A stretch of 64,000 bases of DNA from Mobula hypostoma. Its lineage: Eukaryota. The notes beneath the pieces were generated by a model. It searched no databases, was not told the origin of the DNA, and was given only the letters and a program-made list of their open reading frames with translations. The position numbers and the translations under genes are program-made. The stretch lies in assembly GCF_963921235.1 (NCBI RefSeq), contig NC_086097.1:93622001-93686000 (forward strand), given 5' to 3'. Shown here in pieces: positions 2,377 through 64,000 of this stretch (positions are counted from its first letter, which is position 1; the number at the start of each line of letters is the position of its first letter).

Positions 2377-2455
2377 GCACACACACACACACACACACAC
2401 AGACACGTACACACATAGACACACACACTCTCTCTCTCTCTCACACACACACACA

Positions 2456-2523
<68 letters not shown>

Positions 2524-2575
2524 CTCTCACACACAGACACACACACACACACACGTACACACATAGACACACACA

Positions 2576-2640
<65 letters not shown>

Positions 2641-2667
2641 TCTCTCTCTCTCTCTCTCACACACACA

Positions 2668-2702
<35 letters not shown>

Positions 2703-2717
2703 TCTCACACACACACA

Positions 2718-2750
<33 letters not shown>

Positions 2751-2819
2751 GTACACACACACACACACACACTCTCTCTCTCACACACACACACACACTC
2801 TCTCTCTCTCACACACACA

Positions 2820-2856
<37 letters not shown>

Positions 2857-2873
2857 TCTCTCTCTCACACACA

Positions 2874-2918
<45 letters not shown>

Positions 2919-2961
2919 TCTCTCTCTCTCACACACGTATACACACACACACACACACACA

Positions 2962-3000
<39 letters not shown>
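2377..3000. repeat. Compound (CA)n/(CT)n microsatellite, about 620 bp
   Basis: Alternating CA and CT dinucleotide blocks seen directly. Confidence 0.98.
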
Positions 3001-3001
<1 letters not shown>

Positions 3002-4065
3002 GAGTCTCTTTTGCCATCACTCATACACTGACTTTCACTTCTCTTTCTCTCTTTCTCTCTCTCTCTATAATGTTTGGACCAATATCAGGTGGTATGTCAC
3101 TCTCCATCCTTCCTACCCTGCACATGATTTGCTGGGTGGTTTCCACATGAATGTTCTCCTGTCACTATTTGATTGCCCCTGGTGCTGAACCTCCCCGTTT
3201 GCAGTGGCATCCTCGAACCCCATCAGCTGACCAATGATGACATCTTGGTGGATGAACGGAAATTCCTGCCTCCTTAGTTTGGTTAGAGTCTGGTGAATTA
3301 AGGGTCATGACCTCCAAATTGCTGGTGTCAGAGGCCAATGAAGCAATATTGCCTCTGGAAGATTTTTTAATTTTGCGAAGAATAGAAGTTCATACAATGT
3401 TGAGGAGGTGTCTGGAACAGAGGAGGCGTCTCTCAGTATTGAATGTATAGTGCCGTATAGGAGCTGATAGACAAGGGCTGTTCTTGTCAGGCGATACATC
3501 TTAAACAGGAGGTATGGAAAAGTGGAAATATTTCATAGACCCTCTAAGTGGAAGGAAATACAAAGAACAGAATGGAACATGTGAAAATTGTGTAAGGCAT
3601 AACAAAAGTTGTATTTTTTTACAAAATTAGAAGAAAAGGGATTGTGCAACATTGAGGAAGGTGCTTCATAGTTGATAATGGTGATAAAACCAAAGGCCAA
3701 AGGAGACTTGTTAAACTGCAACATCTCATGAATATTTAACAATTTAAAAGTCACTTATTAATATTTCTGACTCAAAGTAATTATGATTGAAATAGTGCTA
3801 TAATTAGCATATATATATTAAATATAGGAAAGAAAAAATGCATGACAATGAGAATTCTCCAGGATCAGCTAGTTTTCATCCCGGGATTTTTAAGGAAGTG
3901 CAGAGAATACTGCAGAAAGTCCAATATTCCAAAGTTCTCTTGATCTGCAATGAATATTTGGAAAGCTGGACTTGTCACTTGATTGCTTAAGAGCGGTGGG
4001 GAAATCAGTAAACCTGGTTAGCCCAATGTCTCATGGAGAATTGGTAATGACACCTTCCTTGTGAA

Positions 4066-14910: not shown

Positions 14911-16043
14911 TCCAAAGTAACGCACACAAAATGCTGGAGGAATTCAGCAGGCCAGGCAGTTTCTATGGAAATGAGTCCAGTCGACGTTTCTGATGGCTGA
15001 GGCAATGTCCACACTACGCCGCATAATTTTGAAAACGAAGCTTTTTCTCTTCGTTTTGACCCTCTGTCCACATTGAAACGGCGTTTTCATCCCCCGAAAC
15101 AGAGCTTTTCTAAAACACTCTCCAGAGTGTGTAAATTTGAAAACGATTGTTGCGCGTTGTAGTGTGGACGGGGTAAATGGAGATATTTTAAAACGCTGTC
15201 ATGACAACATCACAACAACAATGCTTTTTCTGCTTGTGCTTGGTACTGCGTAAGCACTGCCGGACGGCTGTTATAACGCACAGTCGGTGTGAACGGCGTG
15301 AGAGTTAAATTGTAAAGTGAGCTTTTTTGACTAGATCCCCTAAATTGATTTGATTGAGTCTATCTTTAAAAATATCAATGACAGAAATACATACGGTCTG
15401 GCGGCAGAAGATTCCACTCTCTTGTTGATCTTGGGTAGAGGACGGCTTCATGCGTGTGTTGTTTACTTTATTGTCTACGTTAATAGCTTGTTTGGAGTTA
15501 AACATCTCCACTGCTTTGCTGACTTTGTAGTCGTTTATAACTCGCAGAAACAGCTCGACTTCATTGTCTTGTCTAAACGAAGAAGTCCGGTCTGCTTTTT
15601 CCAGTGGAGGTTTTCTTTGTATTCCTCGAAGACATTGTTGAAAACTTTCTTTCGCTGTTGTTGTTGGTACTCTAGTTTTTAACCAATGGAAATAGTAAAA
15701 TGCCGCCGCGGAAACGTAAATATTATACCGTTTCCTCTTCACTTGTTTTCTGTAGATGTGTCTGTGCATGCCCAGTAGGAGTAGATTTGTCCAAATATCC
15801 GTTTTAATGTGGACAGAGATATTTTGAAAAACGCCTAGTGTGGACGCCTGTCATTTTTACTTGAAACCGGCGTTTTCAAAATTATTTGGTCTAGTGTGGA
15901 CGTAGCCTCAGTCTTGATGAAGGGTCTCAGCCCGAAACGTTGAGTGTACTTTTTTACCGTAGATGCTGCCTGGCCTGCTGAGTTCCTCCAGCATTTTGTG
16001 TGTGTTGCTTGGATTTCCAGCATCTGCAGATTTTCTCTTGTTT
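14911..16043. mobile_element. Fold-back PLE 3'-end element split by a Harbinger insertion
   Basis: Left arm 14911-14990 (minus) and right arm 15911-16043 (plus, with hammerhead variant TTGATGA...GAAACGTT) are inverted copies; flanked by TTTATAAA on both sides. Confidence 0.75.
15001..15907 (-). mobile_element. Non-autonomous PIF/Harbinger DNA transposon with a Myb/SANT-like remnant
   Basis: About 37-bp TIRs GGCAATGTCCACACTACGCCGCATAATTTTGAAAACG / reverse complement GGCTACGTCCACACTAGACCAAATAATTTTGAAAACG; subterminal GAAAACG/CGTTTT repeats; minus-strand peptide DNEVELFLRVINDYKVSKA resembles the Harbinger DNA-binding protein N-terminus. Confidence 0.75.
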
Positions 16044-23786: not shown

Positions 23787-23879
23787 ACACATAAAAGTTG
23801 TTGGTGAACGCAGCAGGCCAGGCAGCATCTCTAGGAAGAGGTGCAGTCGACGTTTCAGGCCGAGACCCTTCGTCAGGAC
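23787..23879 (-). mobile_element. 93-bp PLE 3'-end insertion with an intact hammerhead
   Basis: 16-bp TSD ATTTAATCTCCACAAC (23771-23786, 23880-23895); near-identical to the 3' end of the full-length element. Confidence 0.92.
23844..23879 (-). ncRNA. Minimal type I hammerhead ribozyme
   Basis: Minus strand GTC-CTGACGA-A-GGGT-CTCG-GCCT-GAAAC-GTC-GACTG. Confidence 0.8.
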
Positions 23880-24235: not shown

Positions 24236-25232
24236 AAACACATGAACTTCTGCAGAGGCTGGAAATCTAGAGCAACATGCATAAAATGCTGGAGAAACTC
24301 AGCAGATCAGGCAGCATCTATGGAGAAGAATAAACAGTCAACGTTTTGGGCCGAGACCCTTCTTCAGGACTGTAGAGGAGGAAGGAAGAAACCATAATGA
24401 GAAGGTGGGGGCAGGGGAGAGTGTACAAGCTGGCAGGTGATAGGTGAGGGGGAAGATAGGTGGGTGGGGGAGGCGGAATGACGTGAGAAACTGGGAGGCG
24501 ATGAATGGAGGAGGTAAAGGGTTGAAGAAGAAGGAATCTGATAAGAAAGGAGAATGGACCACTGGTGAAAGGGAAGAAGGAAGGGCACCAGAGGAAGATT
24601 ATGGGCAGGTGGGGAGAAGGGAAGGGGTAAGAGGGAGCCAGAATGTGGAGTGGAAAAAGGGAAGTGGGGAGAACTTACTGGGTTAGAGAAATGAATGTTC
24701 ATACCATCAGGTTGGAAGCTACCCAGACGCAATATGAGGTGTTGCTCCTCCAAACTGAGAGTGGCCTCATCGTGACAGTAGAGGACTGACATGTTGGAAT
24801 GGGATGGAAAGTGGAATTGAAATGGGTGGCCACTGGGAAATCCCACCTTCTGTCGTGGATGAAGTAAAGGTGCTTTACAAAGTGGGCCCCCACTCTGAGT
24901 TGGGTCCCACCGATGTAGAGGAGGCCGCACTGGGAGCACCGGATACATGGATGACCTTAACTGACTTGTTGGTGAAGTGTTTGTTGCCTCACCTGGAAGG
25001 ACTGTTTGGAGCCCTGAATGATGGTGAGGTAGGAGGTGTAGGGACAGGTGTAGCATTTGTCCTGCTCACAGGGATGTGCCTGGAGGGAGATCAGTATGAA
25101 GGGACAAGAGAGATGCAGAGAAAGGGATCCTTGCAGAACGCAGAGAGTGGAGGGGGAGGAGGGAAAGATGTGCTTAGTGGTGGAATTCCACTGAAGATGG
25201 TGGAAGCTAGGGAGAATGATGTGCTCGATACA
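24236..25232 (-). mobile_element. 5'-truncated older Penelope-like element (GIY-YIG region plus 3' UTR)
   Basis: KCYTCPYTS.LT.IQG.KQSFQVRQ, FPVATHFNS, EEQHLILRLGSFQPDGMNI; decayed hammerhead at 24335-24371. Confidence 0.9.
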
Positions 25233-29505: not shown

Positions 29506-32050
29506 GCCCCTTTTCTGTCTCAGTTGTTGACACAAACCCATGTGTGTTCATTAGAATTCTATCCTTATGTGTTTTTCTTCTTCCAACATCTCCCACTGTT
29601 TCAGAGGAATGTGGTTTCCTGAAAATAAGGATTATTCATTGCAGATCATTTCCCGTGTTGCACACCAAGAGATTTTGATTGCATTAATCATCACCTCCCT
29701 GATAGGCTCCAGTTGCAAACATCAGTTGAGAATTTCTTTGTCTGCTGTTGCATTCATGGTAGAGGGAAGAAAGTGAAACCGTTTTGCTATTAATGCCTTT
29801 TACTAGCCTGGACTTCTCAAACTTCAGTTCAGTTTTTTTGGATATGGCTGATGCTGTCAAGAACGTTTTTTGCTCATGAAGACAAAAGAAGCAGCAGGTG
29901 GAATCTGGAACAAAGAAAGATAAGAACATTGTGAAGAGTTGGTGGGTCCAGCTGCGTCTTTGGAGGCAAAAAGTCTAAGTCGACATTTTGGGTTGAGACC
30001 CTGTTTCATGACTTAAGAGAAAAGATTGCCATTATACACCAGTATGAGGCAAAGGGCAGGGGAAGCTGGGGGGGCGGGGGAGTTGCGAGAGGAGGAGGAT
30101 AGGGGATATTAAAGGATATCAGAAGTATTTTTTTCAGATACATAAAGAGGAAATGAGAGGCAAGAGTGGACTTGGGACCACTGTGAAATGACACTGGAGA
30201 GGGCGTATTGGGGACAAGGAAATGGCAGATAAACTATTATTTAGCTTTAGTCTTCACTGTGGAAGACACTAGCAGTGTGCTAGATATTTGAATAAGCCAG
30301 AGGGCAGAAGTGAGTGTAGTTGCTAGGGAGAAGGTGCTTGGGAAGCTGTAAGGTGTGAAGGTCCGTAAGTCACCTGGACCAGATGGTCTATACCCCAGAG
30401 TTCTGAAGGAGATAGTTGAAGAGATTGTGGAGGCATTAGTGGTGACCTTTCAAGATTCAGTAGCTTCTGGAAAGGTTGTAGAGGACTGGAAAAATGAAAA
30501 TGTCACTCCCCTCTTTTAGAACCTATAGAGGGAAAAGACAGGAAATTATATGGCAGTTAGCCTGACTTCATTGGTTGGCAAGATATTGGAATCCATTATT
30601 AAGGATGAAGTACGTGATAAAGTAGGCCAAAGTCAACATTGTTTCCTTAAAGGGAAATCTTGCCTGAAATATCTGTTGGAATCCTTTGAGGAAATAACAG
30701 GCAGGATAGACAAAGGAGAGTCAGTGGATGTTGCTTACTTGGAATTTCAGAAGGCTTTTGACAAGGTGCTGCATATGAGGCTGCTAAACAAGGTAATAAC
30801 CTTTGGTATTACAGGGATACTAGCATGGGTAGAAGATTAGATGGCTGGCAGGAGGCAAAGAGTGGGAATAAAGGGGCCTTGTCTGGCTGGCTGCCGGTGA
30901 CGAGTGGTGTTAAGACCATAAAAACATGAGACATAGGAGAAGAATGAGGCATTCAGCCCATCGAGTCTGCTGCACCATTCCATCAATGGCTGATTTATTT
31001 CTCTCAACTCCCTTTCGTTGCCTTCTCCCCATGACCTTCGAAGACTTAACTAACCAAAAACTATTAACTTCCTCTTTAAATATACTCAATGAATTGGCCT
31101 CCACACTGTCCATAGCAATGAATTCCAAGGATTCACCACTTTCTGGCTAAAGAAATACCTTCTCATCTCTTTTCTAAAAGGATGCCTCTCAATTCTGAGG
31201 CTGTTCCCTCTGGTCCTAAACTCCCTCACTATCGGAAATCCTCTCCATGTCCACTCTATCTAGGTCTTTCAATACTAGATAAGTTTCAATGAGATTCCCC
31301 CTCATTCTTCTAAACTCCAGTGAGTACAGGCCCAGAGTGATCAAACGCACCTCGTACATTAACCCTTTCATTCCCAGAATCATTCTCGGGAACCTTCTCT
31401 GGATCCTCTCAAATACCAGCACATCTTTTCTTTGATAAGGGGTGCAAAACTGCTCAGAATACTCCAAATGTGGCAAGACCAATGCTTTATATCCAAAGCA
31501 TTACATCCTTGCTCTTGTATTCTAGTCCTCTCGAAATGAATCTGACATTGCATTTGTTTACCTCACCGCTGACTCAGCCTGCAAGTTAACCTGTGGGGAA
31601 TCCTGCACGAGGACTCCCAAGTCCTTTACACTTCTGATTTTTGAATTTTCTCCTCATTTAGTCAACAGAATATGCCTTTGTTCCATCTACCAAAGTGCAT
31701 GACCGTGCATTTCCCTACGTGGTTTTCCATCTGTCACTTCTTCGCTCATCAGCTCAATATGTCCAAATCCTTCTGCAGACTCCCTGCTTCCTCAGCATTA
31801 TCTGCCTCTCCACGTATCTTCACATTGTCTGCAAACTCGACCACAAAGTCATCAATTCCATCATCCAGAGTGTTGACCTCTAACATGAAAAGAAACAGTC
31901 CCAATACCAGCCCCTGTGGAACACCACTAATCACTGGCACCCAACAGGAAAAGGCCCCCTTTATCCTGACTCTCTGCCTCCTGCCAGTCAGCCAATCTCC
32001 TATCCATGCCGGTATCTTTCCTGTAATACTATGGCCTCTCATCTTGCTAA

Positions 32051-32243
32051 TGCCAGCCAGAGGTGTAGTGACATCTGCACCGGACCGAGCTGAGGGAGCC
32101 TGGGTTCCGGTCGGTGCATGCTTTCCATCCGTGCTAGGTCAAGCATTGAGTGAGCACCACGGCCTTGTAAAAAAACAATAAATACTAAAGAGATGGCAAG
32201 GTTTCCGCCCAACGTGCCACTCAGCGCAGAGGGGAATAACATT
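32051..32243 (+). mobile_element. tRNA-derived SINE, same family as 5557-5812
   Basis: Shares GCTTTCCATCCGTGC; 10-bp TSD ATCTTGCTAA (32041-32050, 32244-32253). Confidence 0.8.
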
Positions 32244-32644
32244 ATCTTGCTAAGCAGCCTCATGTGCAGAACCTTTTCCAATGCCTTCTGAAGATCCAAG
32301 TAAACAACATCCACTGACTCTCCTTTGTCTATTCTGCCAGTTACTTCCTCAAATAATTCCAACAGAATTGTCAGGCAAGATTTCCCCTTATGGAAACCAT
32401 GCTGACTCTGGCCTACTTCACCATGCGCCTCCAAATACCCTGAAACCTCATCCTTAATAATGGACTCCAACATCTTCCCAACCACTGAAGTCAGGCTAAC
32501 TGGCATATCATTTCCTTTTTCCTTCCCCCCTACCCCCTTGAAGAGAGGAGTGATATTTGCAATTTTCCAGTCCTCCACAACCATGCCAGAATCAAGTGAT
32601 TCTTGAAATATCACTACTAATGCCTCCACAATCTCTTCAGCTTC

Positions 32645-32898
32645 TAGAAGATAGAACATAGAAACCTACAGCACATTACAGAGCCTTCGCCCCACAATGT
32701 TGTGCCAACCATGTAACCTACTCTAGAGACTGCCTAGAATTTCCCTACCGCATAGCCCACTATTTTCCTAAGCTCCATGTACCTATCTAAGAGTCGCTTA
32801 ACAGACCCTGTTGTATCCACCTCTCCAGCATTACTGGCAGTGCATTCCACGCACCCACCAGTCATTGTGTGAAAAACTGACCCCTGACATCCTCCCTG
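32645..32898 (-). mobile_element. Short CR1 3'-end insertion
   Basis: ATAGAAACCTACAGCAC...GCTCCATGTACCTATC tail, same subfamily as 25577-26040. Confidence 0.8.
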
Positions 32899-34127
32899 TA
32901 CCTCTTTCAGAACACTGGGGTATAAACCATTTGGTCCAGGTGAATTATCTGCCTTCAGATCTTCCAGCTCCCAAGCACCTTGTCCTTGGTATTAGCAACT
33001 ACACTCACTTCTGCCTCCTGACACCGTTAAATACTGCTTGTGTCTTCCACAATGAAGATCGACGCAAAATATTTAAGTTCGTACGCCATCTCTTTGTCCC
33101 CCATAGCTACCACTCCAGTGTAATTTTCCAGTGGTCTCTTTTACTCTTTATATATCTGAAAAACATTTGGTATCCTCTTTGATATTACTGGCTTCATATT
33201 TCATCTTTTCTCTCCTTATTGCTACTTTAGTTGCTTTCTGTTGGTTTTTAAAAGCTTCCCAATCCTCTAACTTCCTACTAATTTTTGCTATATTATATGC
33301 CCTCTCTTTTGCTTTAATGCACTCTTTGACTTCCCTTGTCACCCACAGTAGCCTCATCACCTTTAGAATAGTTTTTCATCTTTGGGATTTACAGTTTCTA
33401 TTCTGCGTCTTTTGAATTGCCCCCAGAAATCCAGCCATTGCTGCTCTGCCGTCATCCCTGCTAGTGTCCCCTTCCAATCAACTTTGGCCAGCTCCTCTCC
33501 CATGCCTCTTTAATTCCCTCTACTCCACTGCAATACTGACACATCTAACTTTATCTTCTCTCGCTCAAACTGCAGGGCAAGTTCTATCATATTACAATCA
33601 CTGTCTCCTAAGGGTTCCCTTAGCTTAAGCTCCCTAATCAAATTTGGTTCCTTACACAACACCAGATTCGAAATTACCTTTCCCCTAGTAAACTCAACCA
33701 CAAGCTGCTCTAAAAAGCTATCTTGTAGGCATTCTACAAATCCCCTCTCTTAGGAACCAGCACCAACTTGATTTTCCCAATCTACCTGCATATTGAAATC
33801 CCCATGACTATTGTAACATTGTCCTTATTATATGCCTTTTCTGTTTCCCATTGAAATGTATTTACCATATCCTGGCTACTGTTCAGGGGCCTGGATATAA
33901 CTCCCATCAGTGTCTTTTTACCCTTCAGTTTCTTAAAATCTACCCACAAGGATTCTACATCTTTCGATCCTGTCACCTATTTCTAAGGATTTGATTTCAT
34001 TTTTCACCAACAGAGCCACCCCAATATCCTAAACAACAGGAATTCTGCAGATGCTGGAAACTCAAGCAATACACATCAAAGTTGCTGGTGAACGCAGCAG
34101 GCCAGGCAGCATCTATTGGAAGAGTTT

Positions 34128-34165
34128 CAGTCGACGTTTCAGGCCGAGACCCTTCGTCAGCACTA
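34128..34165 (-). ncRNA. Minimal hammerhead (antisense arm; one stem I mismatch)
   Basis: Minus strand TAGTG-CTGACGA-AGGGTCTCGGCCT-GAAAC-GTC-GACTG. Confidence 0.7.
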
Positions 34166-34183
34166 ACTGACTCTTCCTTCAGT

Positions 34184-34221
34184 TAGTCCTGACGAAGGGT
34201 CTCGGCCTGAAACGTCGACTG
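34184..34221 (+). ncRNA. Minimal type I hammerhead ribozyme
   Basis: TAGTC-CTGACGA-A-GGGT-CTCG-GCCT-GAAAC-GTC-GACTG; predicted cleavage after C34216. Confidence 0.82.
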
Positions 34222-35479
34222 AAACTCTTCCAATAGATGCTGCCTGGCCTGCTGCGTTCACCAGCAACTTTGATGTGTGTCACCCCAATATCCTGCCTAC
34301 TTGCCTGTCCTTTCAATACTATGTGTACCCTTGGATGTTCAGCTCCCAACTGTGATCTTCTTTCAGCCACGAAGCAGTGATGCCCACAACGTCATACCTG
34401 CCAATCTCTAACTGCGCAACAAGCTCATCTACCTTATTCCGTATACCGCCTTCAGTCCTTTATTCCTCACCCTTTTCGATTTTCCTTGCATGTTCCACTT
34501 CAGCTCATCTCACTGACTGCAATTTTGCTCTATCATCTGCCTGTCCTTCCTCACAGTCTCACTACACACTGCATCGCCTTGTATGCCAGCTGCCCCATCC
34601 GTAGCCATATCAGTCTGGTTCTTGTGCCCCCCGTGAACTTAATTTAAACCTTTCCCGACAGCTCTAGCAAACCTGCCTGCAAGGATTCTGGCCCCCCTTG
34701 GGTTCAGGTATAACCTGTTCTTTTGGCACAGGTCAAATCTTCCTCAGCAGTATCCACAGGTACACTTGTTGCTGAAGGAAATGGCCACTGGGGAACTCTT
34801 CACTAACTGCTTACTCCCCTTTCTTCTCCTGGTGGTCACCCATCTACTCTCTGGGTGTGACCACTAGAGTAAAGGTCTCATCTATGAGGTCTTTAGCCTC
34901 CTGGATGATCCTGAATACATCTAGCTCCAACTCCAGTTACTCGTCCTTGTCAGGTGATGAAGGAAGTTGGGTGCACTTCCTTCATCAGGGAGACCATTAA
35001 CTGCCCTGAAATCCCACGTCTCATAGGAGGAGCATTCTGCCACCTTAACTACAATCCTGATGACACTTATTTTACCTCTAACATCTCAGACTTCAGTTCT
35101 ACCCTGTGTTTGTTCTAGCCGAAGCCTGTTGAGCCAAACCTTTACCATTCTAACACTGTCAGCTCCACCAGTGACCGCTTTGCTTAAACCTTGTTTCTTT
35201 TTATTGGCCCCTGCTAAATTACTATTAATCCAAGTGATCTCCTGCTCCACGGACAAGACCCGAAAGGACCTGCTCACCTTTTACCCCATGTTCTGCAGGT
35301 GCTGGTGTGGAGGCTGCTTCTTGTCACGTTATATGTCAATGATTTGGATGACTCTGGAACTGATGGCTTTGTGGCTAAATTTGTAGGTTAGTGGAGATAC
35401 AGGTCGTGTTGAGGAAGCAGCGGGTTTGCAGATGACCTTCTGCAGATTTTGAGAATGGGCAAAGAAGTGGCAGATGGAA

Positions 35480-35586
35480 TCCAAAGCAACACACACAACA
35501 TGCTGGAGGAACTCAGCAGGCTAGGTAGCATCTATTGAAAAGAGTAAACAGTCGACGTTTCGGGCTGAGACCCTTCATCAGGACTA
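35480..35586 (-). mobile_element. PLE 3'-end insertion (second subfamily) with an intact hammerhead at 35549-35586
   Basis: Minus strand TAGTC-CTGATGA-A-GGGT-CTCA-GCCC-GAAAC-GTC-GACTG followed by the TGCTGAGTTCCTCCAGCA tail; interrupts CR1 at W.MEY. Confidence 0.85.
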
Positions 35587-36669
35587 AATACACCATAGGG
35601 AAGCGTATGCTCATGCACTTTGATAGCAGAAATAAGGGTCTAAACAATTTTAGAAATCAGAGGTACAAAGGGGCTTGGAAGTCCTTGTACAGGATTCTTT
35701 AAAGTTTAACTTGTAGGTTGGTGAAGAGGAAGGCAAATGCAAGTTAGCATTCATTTTGAGAGAACTAAAATATAAAAACAAGAATGTAACGTTGAGGCTT
35801 TATAAGGCATCGGTCAGGCCACACTTGGAGTACTGTGAGTAGCTTTGAGCCCCTTGTTCAAGAAAGGATGAGCTGCCGTGGGAGAGGTTCCAGAGGAGGT
35901 TCATGAGAATGATTCCAGGAATGGAAGTGTTTACATATGAGGAGTGTTTGATGACTCCGGGTTTGTACTCATTGGAGTTTAGGAAAATCACGGGGAGGAT
36001 CTCATTGAAACCTGTGGAGTATTGAAAAGCCTGGGTAAGGTGGATGTGGAAAGGATGTTTCCTATTGTGGGAGAGTCTAGGACCAGAGGGCACTGCTTCA
36101 AATAGAGGGACATCCTTTTAAAATGGAGATGAGGAGGCATTTATTTTGTGAGAAGGTGGTGAATCTGTGGAATCCATTGTCACAGACAACCGTGGAGGCC
36201 AAGTCATTGAGTATATTTAAAGCAGAGGTTGACAAGTTCTTCATAAGTAAGGGCGTCAATGGTTACGGGGAGAAGGCTGGATAATGGGGTTGAGAGTGAT
36301 CAAAATCAGTCATGATGGAACGGCAGCGAAGACTTGATGGGCTGAATGGCCTCATTCCGCTCCTATGTCTTATGGCCATATGGGTGGTGGTGCAGCTTTG
36401 TGATAGAAGCCGGTAGATGATAGGAGAAACCAGATAGGGAGGAGATAATGTGAAATTGGAACCGGGGTGGGGTGGGGAACAGGAAAGATGAACGAATTTG
36501 GAATTGGAAAACATGTTCATTTCGAGATGCTGAGAGGTAGCAGTGGGGAGCTGAAAGTGAAAGAGCCCTTCTGACTGGCTAATATGGAAGGCTATTTTAA
36601 AGGCTAAAATACAATTCCCATTGAGTTTAGAGATGGAACTGGATGCACGTCAACTCTGGCAGGGTTTGC

Positions 36670-45039: not shown

Positions 45040-45147
45040 GAGAGCTTAGATGCTGGAGTCTGCAGCATCAAACCTAATGCTGGAGGAACCCAGCAGGCCA
45101 GGCAGCATCTGTAGAGGCAAATGAACAGTCAGCTTTTCAGGTCAGGG
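45040..45147 (-). mobile_element. Degenerate PLE tail fragment
   Basis: AGATGCTGG...ATGCTGGAGGAACCCAGCAGGCCAGGCAGCATCT. Confidence 0.65.
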
Positions 45148-47260: not shown

Positions 47261-49530
47261 CAGTGCATTCCGATTAATTGGTTAAAGTGGGGCAGCTACT
47301 TATTTGACCCAACTCCTAAAGAACAAAAACTAATTGACAGGATAGTTCTGCCGAAGGCTTTTGGCGCAAAACAATGACTGTACTCTTTTGCATACATGCT
47401 GCCTGGCCTGTTGAGTTCCTCCAGCATTTTGCGACAATCTATGTTCCGTGCCTATTCTGGTATCTGTCCCCCACTTTTCCTTCGCTATATCGACGACTGC
47501 ATTGGCGCTGCTTCCTGCACGCATGCAGAACTCGTTGACTTTATTAACTTTGCCTCCAACTTTCACCCTTCCCTCAAGTTTACCTGGTCTATTTCCGACA
47601 CCTCCCTCCCCTTTCTAGATCTTTCTGTCTCTGTCTCTGGAGACAGCTTATCCACTGATGTCTACTATAAGCCTACTGACTCTCACAGCTATCTGGACTA
47701 TTCCTCTTCTCACCCTGTCTCTTGCAAAAACGCCATCCCCTTCTCGCAATTCCTCCGTCTCCGCCGCATCTGCTCTCAGGATGAGGTTTTTCATTCTAGG
47801 ACGAGGGAGATGTCTTCATTTTTTAAAGAAAGGGGCTTCCCTTCCTCCACCATCAACTCTGCTCTTAAACACATCTCCTCCATTTCACGTACATCTGCTC
47901 TCACTCCATCCTCCCACCACCCCACTAGGAATAGGGTTCCCCTGGTCCTCACCTACCACCCCACCAGCCTCCGGGTCCAACATATTATTCACCGTAACTT
48001 CCGCCACCTCCAACGGGATCCCACCACTAAGCACATCTTTCCCTCCCCCCTCTCTCTGCATTCCGCAGGGATCGCTCCCTACACAACTCCCTTGTCCATT
48101 CGTCCCCCCCATCCCTCCCCACTGATCTCCCTCCTGGCACTTATCCGTGTAAGCGGAACAAGTGCTACACATGCCCTTACACTTCCTCCCTTACCACCAT
48201 TCAGGGCCCCAGACAGTCCTTCCAGGTGAGGCATCACTTCACCTGTGAGTCGACTGGGGTGATATACTGCGTCCGGTGCTCCCGATGTGGCCTTTTATAT
48301 ATTGGTGAGACCCGACGCAGACTGGGAGACCGCTTTGCTGAACATCTACGCTCTGTCCGCCAGAGAAAGCAGGATCTCCCAGTGGCCACACATTTTAATT
48401 CCATGTCCCATTCCCATTCTGACATGTCTATCCACGGCCTCCTCTACTGTAAAGATGAAGCCACACTCATGTTGGAGGAACAACACCTTATATTCCGTCT
48501 GGGTAGCCTCCAACCTGATGGCATGAACATTGACTTCTCTAACTTCCACTAGGCCCCACCTCCCCCTCGTACCCCAGCTGTTACTCATTTTTATGCACAC
48601 ATTCTTTCTCTCACTCTCCTTTTTCTCCCTCTGTCCCTCTGAATATACCTCTTGCCCATCCTCTGGGTCACCCCCCCCCGTCTTTCTTCCCGGACCTCCT
48701 GTCCCATGATCCTCTCGTATCCCCTTTTGCCTATCACCTGTCCAGCTCTCGGCTCTATCCCTCCCCCTCCTGTCTTCTCCTATCATTTTGCATCTCCCCC
48801 TCCCCCTCCAGCTTTCAAATCCCTTACTCACTCTTCCTTCAGTTAGTCCTGACGAAGGATCTCGGCCTGAAACGTTGACTGCGCCTCTTCCTATAGATGC
48901 TGCTTGGCCTGCTGCGTTCACCAGCAACTTTGATGTATGTTGCTGGGATTCTCTTTGTTTATTTGGGACACTATGCTGCTGAATTGGGGCAGGAGACAGT
49001 TGGAGAACAGTTTCTAACTAGCATCAGTCGCATGCACTGTGTGGCCATTAGACACTACACTGTGCTTTGGGTGAACAGCTTTTAAATCGTGTCAGTTGCT
49101 TATGTTTGTGTTCAAAAAGCAGTGATTTTTGTCAGTACTAGAACTAAGGAGTAAGACAATTCTGAACTGTTTTGCTCACTGCGGTTTCAAGCATTCAGTC
49201 ACGGAGATGCCAGAAACAGCTGGGAGTGAAAATGAAACGATTTCATTACATCAACAGGTCAGGAACTATGAAGAATTTCAAGGTATCAACAATCTTGAAT
49301 GTTACAATGAAACTGATAACTATGAGGAATTAAATCGTAGTTTTATAGTCTGTAGTAATATTGAAAGTGTTCCAGTTTGTTCTTTTTTTTCATTTAAATA
49401 CATAATTTTATTAATTAAACAGTAATAAATACCTTTTTAACTATTTCCATGAAACTTTGGCTAATTGAGGCAGTTATTTATTTGAGCCAAAATATTCAAG
49501 TGTGTCCTGATGTGTTCCAATTAACTATCT
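47261..49530 (+). mobile_element. Second Tigger-derived element, split by a PLE insertion
   Basis: TA-CAGTGCATTCCGATTAATTGG start; resumes near 48944; peptide TILNCFAHCGF; ends CCAATTAAC near 49525. Confidence 0.8.
47433..48943 (+). mobile_element. 5'-truncated young Penelope-like element (RT C-half, GIY-YIG, 3' UTR with hammerhead at 48844-48881)
   Basis: Near-identical to 61770-63280: RYIDD, LPFLDL, VIYCVRCSRCGLLYIGET. Confidence 0.96.
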
Positions 49531-55443: not shown

Positions 55444-57572
55444 TAAGAATAGTCACTGAGGCAGGTTGCCATGTTCTTCTTGGGCACCGGTCTGATAGAA
55501 GCCTGCTTGAAGCAGCTGGGCACCTCCGACTGCCAAAGCGAGAAGTTAAAGATGTCAGTAAACACTCCGGGCAGTAGATTAGCACAGGTCTTCAGTACTT
55601 GGCCAGGTCAGATGCTTCCTGTGAGTTCACCTTCCTCTTACATTAGCCCCTGAGATTGAAATCACGGGGTGGTCAGGGGGAAGGGGAAGTTTGTGAAGAT
55701 GCCTCCATGTTCTGTTGATTAAAGCATGCAAAAAAGGCACTGGACTTATCTGGGAGTGAAACCTTGTCATTTATGATGCCTGGTTTTGCTCTGTAGGAGG
55801 TGCTGACAATCAAGCCCTGCCACAATGGTCAAGCATTCCTCTGTGATTCAGGTTTGGTCCCAAATTGCCACTTCGTATGTGAGATGGCTTTCCGGAGGTC
55901 AGACCTGCATTTCTTGTACTTCCCTAAGTCACCAGTCCTGGACGCCACAGATCGGCCTTCAGCAGGTCGTGGATCTCTTGGATCATCCAGAGCTTCTGAT
56001 TGGGAAGACTCTGAATGACTTTGTGGAGACACACTTGCGGACAAGTGTCTTTATGAAGTCCATGACAGTTGTGGCGTATTCGGGGCCTCCGATGAGTCCT
56101 TGAACACGGCCCAGTCCACCGACTCGAAACAATCCTGTAGCTGTTCCTTTGCCTCTCGCAGCCACCTCTTTGTTGTCCTTACTTCTGCTGTATGCAGGCC
56201 GATGATCAGATTTCCAGAAACGCGGTCTAGGGATGGACTGTAGGCATTCTTGATGGTAGTGTAGCAGTGGCCGAATGTGTTGGGTCTTCTGGTGCTGCCG
56301 GTGATGGGCTGATGATAATTGAGTAGAGATCTCTTCAAGCTAACCTGATTGAAGTCTCCGGCAAAGATGTGGAAGACTTCAGGGTAGGCAGTTTCGTGTT
56401 AATCCTGGCATTCCGTACATCTAATGCTTGCTTGACATTGCCCTTTGCCAGTGTGTAAACTGCAGTCGGGATCACGGTGGTAAGTGGTTAGACCTGGTCG
56501 TATTGTGTTGTAATGGGTGGTTGGTATTTATCACAGCCCTTGTGTGCCAAAGGGTATTTTTCTGTGTTGTATCAGCTCGTGCCTGAGTGATGTGTTGGTT
56601 TCATTTCATGCATGCATGGATTGCCTCATCTACTGAGCACTTAAGAATGAAGCTGAATGTTGTGCAATCACCAGGAAACATCTGCACGTCTGATCAATGA
56701 ACCAGTGAATTTTATTAATGATGGCTGAGCCAAAGAACACTGGCCTCGGGAACACCTGCGATGGTATCTGAGCACTGGGATAGCAACCAGCTAACTTTGT
56801 GCGAGTCCTGGCTCTGACCACAGGATGACACTTCACTTCTTTTTATAAATCCAGCTTCTCTGGGGTCCTGTTAACTCTGCACTCCATCAAATGATGTCTT
56901 GTTGTGAGGCAGCCTCTTTTACCGTGTCTCTAAGCAATCACAGAGTCGCGCACTGTGAACCTCTGCATGTCAACAAGGGTCAGCTGTGTAACTGCCCACT
57001 ACAGAGATGCCCGTCTCTCGTGGTTAAATCTGCATGGACCGAAAAGCTGGTTCTAACACTGACCCAGAGAATACAGATCACATACCGATTGGAGCTGCTC
57101 TGTTTCAAAGAGAAGCCCATTATTTTGGGCTTGCTCTCTGATTTTTTATTCACATATTATTTCCATGTGTTGGCACCAACAGATTTATTTCTTTACTATG
57201 TTAATGCCTCCAATGGGACAAAGCAGTGTTTGTAATGGAACAAACATGCCTAATCTCCTGCATATTATTCTGCAGAAATCTCTGCAGCAGAATTCATTCA
57301 TTCTTCTATTTGATGCACAACCCTGCAATTTTTAATGAATTAAATTAATGACCTCTGCATAATCACTGCACCAAGGAAGAGTTTTGTGCATTGATGCCAC
57401 CAGATTAAGCAAATCCTTTGTAAGCCAACTCAATGTGTCTATGTGTCCGGTTAGGGTCCGAGTGAGGGATGGCCAGAGATCATGTGGGACATCCAGGAGC
57501 ATTGACTGAGGAGACGTCCCGTTGCTGGATAAACAGCTGCAAACAAGAGCATCAGAGATCACAGACCTAGCT

Positions 57573-57777
57573 ACACACATAAATGTTGCTGGTGAACGCA
57601 GCAGGCCAGGCAGCATCTCTAGGAAGAGGCACAGTCGACGTCTCAGGCCGAGACCCTTCGTCAGGACTAACTGAAGGAAGAGTGACTCTTCCTAGAGATG
57701 CTGCCTGGCCTGCTGCGTTCACCAGCAACTTTTATGTGTGTTGCTTGAATTTCCAGCATCTGCGGATTTCCTTGTGT
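57573..57777. mobile_element. 205-bp fold-back PLE mini-element
   Basis: 14-bp TSD TCACAGACCTAGCT (57559-57572, 57778-57791); the minus arm carries a hammerhead with GAAA changed to GAGA; the plus arm has only the tail. Confidence 0.93.
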
Positions 57778-57895
57778 TCACAGACCTAGCTGTTTGGTTT
57801 GACAATTGGTCTAGGTAGGCTTGTTCTATCTTTCACTCTCCCTTCCATTGCTAATCAATGAATTCAAAAAGAATTTTGGAAATAGATAACCTGAA

Positions 57896-58960: not shown

Positions 58961-59096
58961 ACAAACACGAGAAAATCTGCAGATTCTGAAAACTCAAAGC
59001 AACACACAAAGTACCGGAGGGGCTCAGTGGGTACGACAGCATCTATGGAAAAGAGTGAACAGTTGAAGTTGCGGGCCGAGACCCTTCATCGGGACT
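58961..59096 (-). mobile_element. Degenerate PLE 3'-end fragment
   Basis: ACAAACACGAGAAAATCTGCAGA...GGGCCGAGACCCTTCATCGGGACT. Confidence 0.8.
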
Positions 59097-59108: not shown

Positions 59109-59627
59109 TGTAGCCATATATATATATAAAACCGCTGGTTTCCTTGGCTGCGCACGTCCAGGGAAGACACACTCCAGTCCCGCCAAACCTGTGAGATTGA
59201 GATGACTCTCCCACCCCAAACCCTGGTTTGTGTGGATGCTGGGTAATTTGTTATTTGTTACAACACAGTGCCAAGAAGTAACAGACAGCACAGTGCATAT
59301 GATTAAAGGAATTATGCTTATGATCAGTACAGAAAAGAAAGCAAAACAAAAAGGGCCCATTATAATTAAACAGTCAAATGTGCACCAGTTGGAGCTCAAT
59401 TCACCGATCCTCAGTCGATCTTGCTGCCCGGCTCCATCGAATCACAGTTTCCCCACCCAATCGTATCCTATGACTGGTTCTCTCCAGCGTCTTCTCTCTC
59501 CATCTCCCGCTGAAACAAAGGACCCAGCTCACATTCCAAAGCACCCGTTATCTCTCACCATAACCCAAGCATTGCTCCTAAAGAAAGACCGTTACGTTAG
59601 CTGTGAAACCTTTTCCAAGCTGTTACA
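59109..59627. mobile_element. Possible solo LTR
   Basis: TGTAGC...GTTACA termini about 520 bp apart; no matching TSD found. Confidence 0.35.
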
Positions 59628-59837
59628 TAAGGCTGGATCGGTTGAGAGTCTGTTCAATATTCAACCAGGATGTTGACGAAAGGGAACTTGATGATGAATT
59701 TTCATTTAATGCCAAGGGTGGTTAGTTAGAATTTCTGTTGTTTGCGTTAACTTTGATGTGTGTTGCTTGAATTTCCAGCATCTGCAGAATTCCTGTTGTT
59801 TGCGTTTAAATTCACTACTGCGAAGCCTCTTCCGGTG

Positions 59838-62800
59838 ATGCCTACACCGAAGAAGTTTAGATCCTCTCTTCGACGGGAGTTCAGTGAAACCATCTCTCAC
59901 TGCTCCCCATCTGTAATTTCTTCGGCTCTTCAACTTTTCGACCACACTTTGACTCAAACTCGCTATCACAGCCATGTATCCTTTCTTGGAACGTGCCTCT
60001 GTCGCCAACTTACTCCGGTTGGCTTTAGGATTCGTTTCCAAGCCTCTCAATTTGGACCTTCTGAGGATCCCAGGTACTCACATTTTATTGACTCTGCCTC
60101 TCGCCGCTTCTCCCGTCAAGCTCTGAAGGCGACGCTCTCCGCCATGAGGAGGTACTTGGTGTCCCTATCCCAGACCCTTCCACACCTTTGGGACACTTTC
60201 TTCGCCGTCTGTAATGGTCCTACCCGTTATTTCATCCTCCGTCGGATCCACGCCTGCAATCGCCGTTTTTTTGACTTTGTCATGTTAGGCAAAGATCGCA
60301 AGATCTTACATCTACGGACTCCAGAGCCTGCCGGCCCCGACGCTAGCAGGCATGAACTTTCAATTGCGGCCCCTGCCATTGATCTCGGCGGCTCCAACAC
60401 CTCAGGACATATTCAAAACCCGGACTCCAGCAACGACCATGGAGACATTCAAAGCGATCGCGCAATCACCAACTGCGACTCCAGCCTTGAACTCCAGGCC
60501 GGGTCTTTATGTGCTGCTGTTGTGACTCCCGTCTCCCCTTCCCCCACCACCACTCCGCAGCCCCGTCTTCCTCAGATCCCACCGTCAGCTCCTGGGCCCT
60601 CAGAGGCTCCATCTTCCTCTCACCCCAACCCTCCCCTCTCCATTGACACTACCAGCCTCCCCCCTCCCCCCTCTGATCCCAGCTCTCATCCGTGCTGGGT
60701 CTTTACCATCCCCTCCGACCTTCAACTGTCGGAGGCAGAACACTCTGTTCTCAGTAAGGGCCTCACGTTTGTCCCCCTTCGCCCACACCTCAGCGAGTTC
60801 CGTGTTCGCCACGATGCGGAACTTTTCTTCCGCCGTCTCCGTCTCCGAGCCTACTTCTTCGGCAAGGACTCTTCCACCCCCACCGATGACCCCTTCTCCC
60901 GTCTTCAACCCTCCTCTTCTTCATGGACACCCCGCTCTGGTCTTCTGCCTGCTCTGGATCTCTTTATTGCCAACTGCCGACGGGACATCAACCGTCTCGA
61001 CTTCACCGCACCTTGTCCCCATTCCAACCTCACTCCTTCGGAACGCTCTGCTCTCCACTCCCTCCGCACTAATCCTAACATTATTATTAAACCCGCTGAT
61101 AAAGGGGGTGATGTTGTAGTCTGGCGTACTGACCTCTACCTTGCCGAGGCACAGCGACAACTCGCGGATACCTCCTCTTATTTACCCCTCGATCGTGACC
61201 CCACTAAGGACCACCAGGCCATTGTCTCCCACACCATCACCGACTTTATCCGCTCAGGGGATCTCCCATCCACTGCTACCAACCTTATAGTTCCCACACC
61301 CCGCACTTCCCATTTCTACCTCCTACCCAAGATCCACAAACCTGCCTGTTCTGGCCGACCTATTGTCTCAGCTTGCTCCTGCCCCACCGAACTCGTTTCT
61401 GCATACCTCGACACGGTTTTATCCCCCCTTGTTCAATCCCTTCCGACCTATGTTTGTGACACTTCTCACGCTCTTAAACTTTTCGATGATTTTAAGTTCC
61501 CTGGCCCCCACCGCTTTATTTTCACCATGGATGTCCAGTCCTTATATACTTCCATCCCCCATCAGGAAGGTCTCAAAGCTATACGCTTCTTTTTGGATTC
61601 CAGACCTAATCAGTTCCCCTCTACCACCACTCTGCTCCGTCTAGCGGAATTAGTCCTTACTCTTAATAATTTCTCCTTTTGCTCCTCCCATTTCCTCCAA
61701 ACTAAAGGTGTAGCTATGGGCACCCGTATGGGTCCTAGCTATGCCTGCCTTTTTGTTGGGTTTGTGGAACAATCTATGTTCCGTGCCTATTCTGGTATCT
61801 GTCCCCCACTTTTCCTTCGCTACATCGATGACTGCATTGGCGCTGCTTCCTGCACGCATGCAGAACTCGTTGACTTTATTAACTTTGCCTCCAACTTTCA
61901 CCCTGCCCTCAAATTTACCTGGTCCATTTCTGACACCTCCCTCCCCTTTCTAGATCTTTCTGTCTCTGTCTCTGGAGACAGCTTATCCACTGATGTCTAC
62001 TATAAGCCTACTGACTCTCACAGCTATCTGGACTATTCCTCTTCTCACCCTGTCTCTTGCAAAAACGCCATCCCCTTCTCGCAATTCCTCCGTCTCCGCC
62101 GCATCTGCTCTCAGGATGAGGCTTTTCATTCTAGGACGAGGGAGATGTCTTCATTTTTTAAAGAAAGGGGCTTCCATTCCTCCACTATCAACTCTGCTCT
62201 TAAACGCATCTCCCCCATTTCACGTACATCTGCTCTCACTCCATCCTCCCACCACCCCACTAGGAATAGGGTTCCCCTGGTCCTCACCTACCACCCCACC
62301 AGCCTCCAGGTCCAACATATTATTCTCCGTAACTTCCGCCACCTCCAACGGGATCCCACCACTAAGCACATCTTTCCCTCCCCCCCCCTCTGCATTCCGC
62401 AGGGATCGCTCCCTACACAACTCCCTTGTCCATTCGTCCCCCCCATCCCTCCCCACTGATCTCCCTCCTGGCACTTATCCGTGTAAGCGGAACAAGTGCT
62501 ACACATGCCCTTACACTTCCTCCCTTACCACCATTCAGGGCCCCAAACAGTCCTTCCAGGTGAGGCATCACTTCACCTGTGAGTCGACTGGGGTGATATA
62601 CTGCGTCTGGTGCTCCCGATGTGGCCTTTTATATATTGGTGAGACCCGACGCAGACTGGGAGACCGCTTTGCTGAACATCTACGCTCTGTCCGCCAGAGA
62701 AAGCAGGATCTCCCAGTGGCCACACATTTTAATTCCACATCCCATTCCCATTCTGACATGTCTATCCACGGCCTCCTCTACTGTAAAGATGAAGCCACAC

Positions 62801-62886
62801 TCAGGTTGGAGGAACAACACCTTATATTCCGTCTGGGTAGCCTCCAACCTGATGGCATGAACATTGACTTCTCTAACTTCCGCTAG
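59838..62886 (+). CDS. PLE polyprotein: N-terminal domain, reverse transcriptase, Cys-rich linker, GIY-YIG endonuclease (one frameshift near 62380-62392)
   Basis: First ATG at 59838 (MPTPKKF). Motifs IIKPADKGG, FYLLPKIHK, GRPIVS, MDVQSLYTSIP, QTKGVAMG, RYIDD, LPFLDL, YYKPTD; after the shift PCKRNKCYTC and VIYCVWCSRCGLLYIGETRRRLGDRFAEH; stop TAG at 62884-62886. Confidence 0.95.
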
Positions 62887-63180
62887 GCCCCACCTCCCCC
62901 TCGTACCCCAGCTGTTACTCATTTTTATGCACACATTCTTTCTCTCACTCTCCTTTTTCTCCCGCTGTCCCTCTGAATATACCTCTTGCCCATCCTCTGG
63001 GTCAACCCCCCCCTCCCGTCTTTCTTCCCGGACCTCCTGTCCCATGATCCTCTCGTATCCCTTTTGCCTATCACCTGTCCAGCTCTCAGCTCTATCCCTC
63101 CCCCTCCTGTCTTCTCCTATCATTTTGCATCTCCCCCTCCCCCTCCAGCTTTCAAATCCCTTACTCACTCTTCCTTCAGT

Positions 63181-63218
63181 TAGTCCTGACGAAGGGTCTC
63201 GGCCTGAAACGTCGACTG
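63181..63218 (+). ncRNA. Minimal type I hammerhead ribozyme in the PLE 3' UTR
   Basis: Stem I TAGTC/GACTG, core CTGACGA, extra A, stem II GGGT-CTCG-GCCT, GAAAC-GTC with palindromic ACGT; predicted cleavage after C63213. Confidence 0.85.
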
Positions 63219-64000
63219 CGCCTCTTCCTATAGATGCTGCTTGGCCTGCTGCGTTCACCAGCAACTTTGATGTGTGTTGCTTAGTTAGATTTCCCTGGCT
63301 GGAGATGGTCATTGTCTGATACATTTGTGCTGCTGAAATTACTTGCCACCTGCAGCCCATGAGTTGTCTGGCTTTTGATACTTGCAGACATAACTTGTCA
63401 AATTTGCTGAAAAATTGCAAACAGAATTGCAAGTTGCACAATCATCTGTCACTATTTTTAGATATGGCCCAAGTGTGGAGCAAGAGACACTGAAACGGGT
63501 CGATAGTTCACAGACTTTACTGCAAACAGAATTAGAGGGGAGGAAAATCCATGGCTGCCGAATCCGTGGTTGTGACATCATCAGTAAGCATCCTCACTTC
63601 TGACCTCAAGATGGAGGGAAGGTCAGTGATGAAGCAGTGGAAGATGTTTGGGCATAGGACACCTCCCTGCAGTGATTTCCTGAGATTAGTTTGATTAGTG
63701 TGCAGTGACACAGTCTTCTTCCATTGTGCCACGTTCTTCTCTAGCAATGAGAGTGTTTTCCCTCTCGAGTATATAATAGCCTAAAATATCCTATTGTACT
63801 TCTAAGCACTTATATTTTACTTGCTGGTCACCAGAGGTTCCTCTGGCAATAATTTCCTCCTTCCTATGGCTGGAAGGCCTGAAGTCGGTCACTTCATAAT
63901 CCTATCCTGAGACCGGGTTCTCTACACATCCCTCTCGTGTTTTAAAAAATTGATCACATTTTTTTTCATAAAAAAACCATCTATGCAGTTAAACTTATTA

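What the first reader, a model, noticed from the sequence alone, without database searches (positions are those of the whole stretch)
59731..63280. Near-intact, recently active full-length PLE with circularly permuted ends
Seen: an uninterrupted ~850-codon frame through RT, then GIY-YIG, within a 9-bp TSD. The 3' end stops at ...GATGTGTGTTGC. The 5' end begins with that same sequence and its continuation (AACTTTGATGTGTGTTGCTTGAATTTCCAGCATCTGCAGAATTCCTGTTGTTTGCG), which runs straight into the ORF. The tail of the short copies is therefore also the leader of the ORF. Inference: the template is a tandem or circular unit, possibly cut by the hammerhead. Near-identity with 47433-48943 implies recent activity.
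Basis: partly seen in the sequence, partly recalled or inferred. Interest (0 to 1): 0.7.

Follow-up and report, generated by a model that had tools for sequence, protein, structure and literature searches.

The report
Full-length but dead Neptune retroelement copy
This is a complete but already broken copy of a Penelope-type jumping gene in a cartilaginous fish, and its overlapping ends are the known signature of that class, so it is a clean example and not a new mechanism.

Summary
The insertion is real: 59731-63280 with an exact 9-bp target duplication, and a related organism holds the empty site. It is a Neptune-clade Penelope-like element (RT plus C-terminal GIY-YIG, both zinc fingers, minimal hammerhead). 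The 3' UTR does run on into the ORF leader across the family. A 2-nt deficit at 62379-62389 puts the endonuclease out of frame. The 5' end starts with an extra 18-nt piece of the tail. The 3' end lies 67 nt past the predicted hammerhead cut, so the ribozyme did not make it. The copy carries at least 18 private changes, 15 nonsynonymous to 2 synonymous, so it has decayed. It is young only relative to the split from the related organism. The permuted ends match the published pseudo-LTR/tail pattern and internal RT initiation (PMC11167929); a circular template was proposed in 2014 (PMC4209133) and is not tested by this copy. The scan noted truncated Penelope/hammerhead copies before, in this genome and another. 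Verdict: new member of a known kind, low interest.

The parts
59722..59730 (+). left copy of the 9-bp target-site duplication; its last 3 nt (AGA) match leader 59786-59788, a microhomology at the 5' junction
   Evidence: empty site in run X5
59731..59748 (+). 18-nt copy of the end of the tail (leader 59789-59806, one mismatch); probably a template jump at the end of cDNA synthesis
   Evidence: junction present with 0 differences in run X1 record 1
59749..59766 (+). 18-nt remnant of the upstream pseudo-LTR, identical to 63263-63280 (terminal redundancy)
59767..59802 (+). the ~35-nt 'tail' between end class 1 (59766 = 63280) and end class 2 (59800-59802)
   Evidence: 6 other pieces in the window stop at +34 to +36
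59767..59837 (+). leader of the ORF; start of the 3514-nt unit
59838..62390 (+). ORF part 1: ATG, N-terminal domain, Pro/Ser-rich spacer (about 60320-60699), RT core and thumb; 850 codons
   Evidence: (12 of 120 homologs have a match that starts within their first 14 residues at 59838-59860)
62379..62389 (+). C-run/(TC)n tract with a 2-nt deficit that shifts the frame between thumb and linker
   Evidence: other copies show 2 more letters at 62387 (19, 37 and 2 contigs in X1, X5, X9)
62391..62886 (+). ORF part 2: C-x4-C-x2-C linker zinc finger and GIY-YIG endonuclease with CCHH; stop at 62884-62886
62887..63180 (+). pyrimidine-rich 3' UTR
   Evidence: sequence
63181..63218 (+). minimal type I hammerhead motif: stem I 63181-63185 with 63214-63218, core CUGACGA 63186-63192, stem II 63194-63205, GAAA, palindromic ACGU in place of stem III; predicted cut after 63213
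   Evidence: no Rfam match; cleavage not tested
63219..63280 (+). rest of the 3' pseudo-LTR up to end class 1, the inferred RT start; up to 2 further nt are shared with the target
63281..63289 (+). right copy of the target-site duplication
47434..48944 (+). 5'-truncated sister copy, 97.9% identical, same 3' end class, a different (1-nt) deficit in the same tract; inserted inside an old degenerate pseudo-LTR, no TSD found
34031..34280 (.). two-armed inverted insertion of the same family with a 14-bp TSD; one arm ends at class 1, the other at the tail end
57573..57777 (.). second two-armed inverted insertion with a 14-bp TSD and the same two end classes
23787..23879 (-). short 5'-truncated copy (hammerhead to end class 1), TSD up to 16 bp

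Best explanation
A full-length, dead copy of a Neptune-clade Penelope-like retrotransposon, made by the standard PLE route. Shown here: TSD and empty site, domain order, the two end classes about 35 nt apart, UTR-to-leader continuity, the frameshift and the decay. Inferred: (1) the donor RNA was longer than one unit and its downstream hammerhead was not cut, or was re-joined; (2) the endonuclease nicked an AT-rich site and RT began inside the RNA at end class 1, 67 nt past the hammerhead cut site; (3) it copied 3532 nt, 18 nt beyond the unit boundary; (4) it jumped to the tail end of a template, added 18 nt, and was joined to the other strand through a 3-nt microhomology, leaving a 9-bp duplication; (5) the copy then decayed. 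It lacks the upstream pseudo-LTR and an in-frame endonuclease, so it is unlikely to be a donor.
For: Empty site and intact left junction in two runs. Loose ends show leader sequence behind 63282 in 301 (X1) and 222 (X5) contigs, and pseudo-LTR sequence before 59749 in 207 and 136. Both inverted insertions in the window carry the pseudo-LTR and tail contiguously. 5 of 5 young 3' ends fall at -5 to +2 and 6 other pieces at +34 to +36, matching the 30-40 bp tail that PMC11167929 ties to two internal RT starts; that paper also found uncut RNA to be the main substrate in vitro. 98 of 120 homologs span the frame change in one protein. Private changes are 15 nonsynonymous to 2 synonymous, shared subfamily changes 2 to 7 (Fisher p=0.002 after moving one site; 14:2 vs 3:7, p=0.009 before). 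The nearest labelled reference is Neptune1_Ap through P0018.
Against: Internal initiation was shown for a Poseidon element, not a Neptune; its use here is by analogy. The substitution counts rest on the 30 in-element rows among the 40 shown of 286, chosen by the tool as best supported. No listed contig spans the frameshift at this locus, so an assembly error in the tract is not excluded. 3 older copies end at neither class (35484 at +19, 45078 at +17; 14915 shortly after class 1). The hammerhead pairs are kept in 94% of cells but show no two-sided compensatory change in 9 copies. Run X1 may be the source of the assembly and is then not independent.
Confidence: 0.85

Rival explanations
1. The template was a unit-length (3514-nt) RNA circle made by hammerhead cutting and re-joining. 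RT started inside it, went once round, and stalled 18 nt into its own RNA:cDNA hybrid before jumping.
For: The short 18-nt redundancy is what a stall on a circle would leave (inference). The hammerhead motif is conserved across young and old families in the window. The model was proposed for PLEs in PMC4209133. A re-joined cut site leaves the same DNA as an uncut one.
Against: One 5' end cannot be told from ordinary 5' truncation of a tandem transcript. PMC11167929 found cleavage unnecessary in vitro and no RNA-seq reads ending at the cut site for a Poseidon element. Metazoan minimal hammerheads cleave poorly in vitro.
Confidence: 0.15
2. The hammerhead cut defines the 5' end of a linear donor RNA (cut in the upstream pseudo-LTR, uncut downstream), and this copy is a slightly truncated product of it.
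For: Compatible with a 5' end 18 nt into the upstream pseudo-LTR, short of the cut site 67 nt upstream.
Against: The 5' end does not reach the cut site, so nothing here shows a cut. It needs one of two identical ribozymes to cut and the other not. An earlier unchecked note on this genome (e1-7808107) judged a similar closeness to the cut site to be coincidence.
Confidence: 0.2
3. The frame change before the endonuclease is a programmed frameshift of the family, so this copy is intact and competent.
For: Both long copies in the window are out of frame at the same slippery tract.
Against: The two copies are short by different amounts (2 and 1 nt). In-frame forms occur in other copies. 98 of 120 homologs, and the bamboo-shark protein P0001 up to its end just past the tract, read through in one frame. 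Nonsynonymous private changes include Ala to Asp next to the DKG motif, where three Neptune references have Ala.
Confidence: 0.03
4. The frameshift is an assembly error and this locus has one open ORF.
For: C-runs and dinucleotide tracts are error-prone in long-read assemblies (general knowledge); no listed contig spans the site at this locus.
Against: The private nonsynonymous load and the missing upstream pseudo-LTR remain even if the frame is open. The left junction agrees letter for letter with run X1.
Confidence: 0.15

Closest known systems
Neptune clade of endonuclease-bearing Penelope-like elements, nearest labelled row Neptune1_Ap (PMC8557442: introduction, passages, supplement part 57 and matched rows)
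   Same: RT plus C-terminal GIY-YIG, CCHH motif, CX2-5CxxC linker finger with a long spacer, pseudo-LTR with hammerhead, tail, partial tandem and inverted forms. RT is 53% identical over 561 aa to P0018, which matches the Neptune1_Ap row in 90 of 94 residues by eye.
   Different: A cartilaginous-fish lineage (sister to two Chiloscyllium proteins) with a Pro/Ser-rich spacer of about 125 aa before the RT that most homologs lack. This copy is frameshifted.
PAc, Poseidon of Anolis carolinensis (PMC11167929: abstract, main text and start of methods read)
   Same: Repeated pseudo-LTR/ORF junction, two RT start sites that define the tail, hammerhead upstream of the start sites, AT-rich target.
   Different: Different clade. 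In PAc the ATG overlaps the hammerhead and RT starts 111-118 nt inside the ORF; here both end classes lie in a non-coding leader, about 36 and 72 nt before the ATG.
Minimal type I hammerheads of metazoan PLEs (PMC4209133: results and discussion read)
   Same: No stem III, palindromic ACGU, one unpaired base before stem II, 5-bp stem I; the paper names fish Neptune elements and proposes circular templates.
   Different: Stem II has only 4 bp, and the G10.1-C11.1 pair is G-U in the young family (5 of 9 copies).
Penelope insertions of Adineta vaga (PMC3846280: passages)
   Same: 8-10 bp TSDs, empty-site proof, optional 31-bp tail on one inverted pseudo-LTR, microhomology at 5' junctions, insertion into other repeats without TSD.
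   Different: Those copies have full pseudo-LTRs of about 200 bp at the 5' end; here only 18 nt of it were copied.

Membership tests
EN+ Penelope-like elements | RT with DKG motif and C-terminal GIY-YIG endonuclease | tested here: met
   Pfam RVT_1 (E 4.7e-05, below its curated cut-off) and GIY-YIG (E 8.2e-05, above it); 781 homologs
EN+ Penelope-like elements | single ORF | tested here: inconclusive
   Met for the family (98 of 120 homologs; in-frame variants); not met in this copy as assembled
EN+ Penelope-like elements | CCHH motif in the endonuclease | tested here: met
   C83 and C86 invariant, H105 and H121 nearly invariant in 12 aligned sequences
EN+ Penelope-like elements | pseudo-LTR with hammerhead motif | tested here: met
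   Descriptor scan found 5 motifs with both stems among 7 core matches; 94% of cells paired, no two-sided change; cleavage not tested
EN+ Penelope-like elements | optional 30-40 bp tail; direct and inverted forms; TSD of variable length | tested here: met
   End classes at -5..+2 and +34..+36; TSDs of 9, 14, 14 and up to 16 bp
Neptune clade | CX2-5CxxC zinc finger in the RT-EN linker with a long spacer | tested here: met
   C-x4-C-x2-C then 23 residues to the next Cys; Neptune rows show 25-27 and Nematis rows about 7, counted by eye; 82 of 120 homologs match the same pattern
Neptune clade | RT closer to Neptune references than to Poseidon or Nematis | tested here: met
   53% over 561 aa to P0018, a near-copy of Neptune1_Ap by eye; DKG region 49 of 94 to Neptune1_Ap against about 32 of 94 to PoseidonFr, by eye
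Neptune clade | placement in an RT tree with labelled references of all clades | not tested
   The tree (quick method, 51 of 109 eligible rows, midpoint root) holds only Neptune-like homologs and no outgroup
Penelope/Poseidon clade | no linker zinc finger | tested here: not met
   The finger is present
Naiad/Chlamys clade | endonuclease N-terminal to RT | tested here: not met
   EN is C-terminal
Non-LTR retrozymes | non-coding tandem units, each with a hammerhead | tested here: not met
   One coding unit with one hammerhead; definition from bioRxiv 10.64898/2026.07.22.740005
Competent donor copy | upstream pseudo-LTR (partial tandem) and intact ORF | tested here: not met
   Only 18 nt of upstream pseudo-LTR, no upstream hammerhead, frameshift, 15 private nonsynonymous changes
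Hammerhead-processed circular intermediate | unit-length circular RNA joined at the cut site | not testable with these tools
   A re-joined site and an uncut site give the same sequence; no raw RNA reads were offered

The most novel reading that the evidence does not exclude
This family is copied from a unit-length, hammerhead-joined RNA circle, and its 5' junctions record a fixed geometry: RT passes its own start by about 18-24 nt and hands over to the second start site in one constant register. The register of this copy's 5' junction (3456) equals that of a tail-to-pseudo-LTR joint in other copies of two organisms (59800 to 63257). If that register recurs genome-wide, a very large vertebrate family would make the circle-versus-tandem question, open since 2014, testable from DNA alone.
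Probability: 0.12. Interest if true: 0.6.

Novelty: new member of a known kind. Interest (0 to 1): 0.2.

Why it matters
As a locus it matters little: it is a dead copy with a published end structure. It is useful as the full-length reference for a very abundant family in this genome, whose other copies in this window are short 3' pieces. It fixes the ATG, leader, tail, hammerhead and both end classes of a Neptune-clade element, and suggests that the two-site internal initiation shown for Poseidon also holds for Neptune. It is also a dated presence/absence marker between two related organisms. If the 5' ends of full-length copies cluster as in the novel case, it would bear on whether PLEs use circular RNA.

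Tried and rejected
No whole genome is held for this window, so no genome-wide survey of 5' ends or tandem copies was possible. Rfam gave no hammerhead match up to E=1; the 3 matches are chance-level. PDB search gave nothing meaningful. Folding the hammerhead region, the 3' end and the leader gave no unusual stability (z +0.39, +0.72, +0.45, -0.67), so a stem-loop at the RT start is not supported, although the leader can fold a hairpin that opens at end class 1. No RNA holder was listed; run X9 is only guessed to be RNA and is not used as evidence of expression. Raw-read run X21 laid 0 reads, which is no test. Summed contig depth is no copy number by the tool's own statement; only the 5'-to-3' gradient (about 80-fold in X1) is used. 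A metagenome scan with a leader motif found 0 matches. The first pair count used a mis-registered stem II and was redone. In one search the local alignments of 3 class-1 copies ran on into flank or older sequence (+7, +13, +37); their ends were set from the TSD or by eye. The careful tree did not finish and the quick tree is reported. Rejected: programmed frameshift; hammerhead cut as the 3' end; membership of Poseidon, Nematis, Naiad or the retrozymes. Two paper searches for this family in cartilaginous fish returned no description of it; Repbase, Dfam and subscription journals were not searchable, so it may be catalogued. Supplements of the bioRxiv retrozyme paper, which includes one chondrichthyan, were not seen.
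Full report
Observation. The element spans 59731-63280 between two exact copies of TTAGTTAGA (59722-59730, 63281-63289). The duplication is a true target-site duplication: in run X5 (organism B) one 378-nt contig lies on 59539-59721 and continues at 63281-63475, with 4 and 6 other letters. In run X1 (organism A, possibly the source of the assembly) a 236-nt contig covers 59539-59774 with no difference, so the odd 5' junction is not an assembly artefact. The host is a cartilaginous fish by inference: the best named homologs are two Chiloscyllium punctatum proteins at 70% and 67%, and they are sister to this RT with SH-aLRT 100 in a quick tree of 51 rows.

Coding part. The ATG at 59838 is the first in the open frame, and 12 of 120 homologs have a match that starts within their first 14 residues at 59838-59860. 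The frame is open for 850 codons to a C-run at 62379-62389 and stops at 62459; the endonuclease is in another frame ending at 62886. 98 of 120 homologs cover both sides in one protein. Other copies carry two more letters at 62387 (19, 37 and 2 contigs in X1, X5, X9). The sister copy 47434-48944 is short by one letter in the same tract. This is slippage in a simple tract and not a programmed shift. An assembly error at this locus is not excluded.

Clade. The endonuclease has the CCHH motif and a C-x4-C-x2-C linker finger, which PMC8557442 gives for Neptune and Nematis and not for Penelope/Poseidon. The 23-residue spacer fits the Neptune rows (25-27) and not the Nematis rows (about 7) of its Figure S2, counted by eye. 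The RT is 53% identical over 561 aa to P0018, which matches the Neptune1_Ap row in 90 of 94 residues by eye. No tree with labelled references was built.

Ends. The last 18 nt recur at 59749-59766 and continue into the leader, so the unit is 3514 nt. The continuity is family-wide: leader letters follow 63282 in 301 contigs of X1 and 222 of X5, and pseudo-LTR letters precede 59749 in 207 and 136 (only the first 13 consensus letters behind 63282 match the leader, agreement 0.44 and 0.43). Inside the window, the inverted insertions at 34031-34280 and 57573-57777 carry pseudo-LTR and tail in one piece. Taking 63280 as zero, 5 of 5 young 3' ends lie at -5 to +2, and six other pieces (two young inverted arms, four older copies) stop at +34 to +36; three older copies fit neither class. 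This is the optional 30-40 bp tail of PLEs (PMC8557442, PMC3846280). PMC11167929 showed in vitro, for a Poseidon element, that the tail is the stretch between two internal RT start sites. The X1 contig runs unbranched from the flank to 59774, which suggests that this junction is unique to the locus and arose at insertion (inference).

Hammerhead. A minimal type I motif lies at 63181-63218, with a predicted cut after 63213. Its pairs hold in 94% of cells in 9 copies, against 14-47% for slid controls, but no pair changes on both sides, so covariation gives no support. Such motifs were described in fish Neptune, Poseidon and Xena elements, and the same paper proposed circular templates (PMC4209133). 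The 3' end is 67 nt past the cut. A cut in the downstream pseudo-LTR would separate the ORF from the start site, so the copied RNA had that site uncut or re-joined. This fits the finding that uncut RNA is the main substrate for PAc. It does not exclude a circle.

Age and state. Of the 30 in-element rows shown (40 shown of 286), 17 differ from at least 90% of the laid depth in X1, and one more (62308) is private by comparison with the sister copy. These 18 are 15 nonsynonymous, 2 synonymous and 1 in the UTR; 7 are CpG decays. The neutral expectation is 69-76% nonsynonymous. The other 12 are carried by 20-67% of the X1 depth and by at most 6% of the X5 depth; they are 2 nonsynonymous, 7 synonymous and 3 UTR (Fisher p=0.002 after moving that site, 0.009 before). 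At the four of these sites that it covers, the sister copy has the same letter. So a subfamily that is common in organism A and rare in organism B was under purifying selection, while this copy drifted after insertion. Private divergence is at least 0.5%, against 1.3% per lineage for the flanks, which puts the insertion roughly 40% of the way back to the split (inference from 378 nt of flank). At the epaulette-shark rate of 7e-10 per generation (PMC10587355, passages) 0.5% would be millions of generations; CpG decay and the species difference make that an overestimate, but the copy is not a fresh insertion. Summed depth rises about 80-fold from the ORF start to the 3' end in X1, as expected from heavy 5' truncation.

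Mechanism, best reading (0.85). A more-than-unit RNA with an intact downstream hammerhead; a nick at an AT-rich target; internal RT start at end class 1; 3532 nt copied, 18 nt past the unit boundary; a jump to the tail end for 18 nt; microhomology joining; a 9-bp duplication; then decay. The junction anatomy is shown, the steps are inferred. A circle (0.15) and a 5'-cut linear RNA (0.2) are variants of the template step that this locus cannot separate.

One lead remains. Among the 15 joints shown of 1824, 59800 to 63257 (1 contig in X1, 2 in X5) has the same tail-to-pseudo-LTR register, 3456, as this copy's 5' junction. X5 shows the empty site here, so its joint comes from other copies. The letters were not shown and chance is not excluded.

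Comparison and verdict. Every structural feature has a published counterpart. Paper searches for this family in cartilaginous fish found no description, but repeat databases could not be searched. Earlier notes of this scan describe truncated and two-armed Penelope/hammerhead copies in this genome and in another, with the same conclusion; they are unchecked and are not counted as support. New member of a known kind; interest 0.2.

Noticed in passing
window 47335-48975: The sister copy sits inside an old, degenerate pseudo-LTR of an older family, right at the conserved GTGTTGC region, with no TSD and roughly 25-30 nt of the old tail missing. Insertion into an existing pseudo-LTR is one way a partial tandem could form.
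   Followed up: partly
window 59800 to 63257 (joint in runs X1 and X5): A tail-to-pseudo-LTR joint in other copies has the same register (3456) as the 5' junction of this copy.
   Followed up: partly
window 59778 to 63182 (joint in run X5): A joint from the tail straight to the hammerhead start would give a unit of about 110 nt, like a retrozyme monomer; one contig only.
   Followed up: no
window 34017-34294 and 57559-57791: Two two-armed inverted insertions with 14-bp TSDs; in each, one arm ends at class 1 and the other at the tail end, as if both DNA strands were primed at the two start sites.
   Followed up: partly
window 9330-9358, 14915-14990, 15910-16043, 24236-25223, 35484-35587, 45078-45141, 58962-59096: Pieces of one or more older families (about 74-90% identical) with the same hammerhead and tail layout; 12 PLE-derived loci in 64 kb in all.
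   Followed up: partly
window 60320-60699: A Pro/Ser/Thr-rich spacer of about 125 aa between the N-terminal domain and the RT, absent from most homologs but of similar or greater length in P0088, P0090 and P0113.
   Followed up: no
proteins P0003-P0120: After the two shark proteins, the closest RTs (up to 58% over 560 aa) are unnamed or from marine invertebrates; no bony-fish name appears among the named hits in the best 120. Old transfer and deep conservation were not told apart.
   Followed up: no
window 32039-32665 (-): A fragment of a non-LTR RT (weak Pfam RVT_1); it looks CR1-like, a label recalled and not tested.
   Followed up: no
window 8822-9364 (-): An open frame that resembles a hAT/Buster-type transposase remnant (recalled; no Pfam match), with a PLE tail piece at its edge.
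   Followed up: no
window 2250-3190: A long (CA)/(CT)-rich simple-sequence tract that gives spurious long frames.
   Followed up: no
window 59200-59530: The left flank holds another high-copy repeat (summed depth 10^4-10^5 in X1 and X5), not identified.
   Followed up: no
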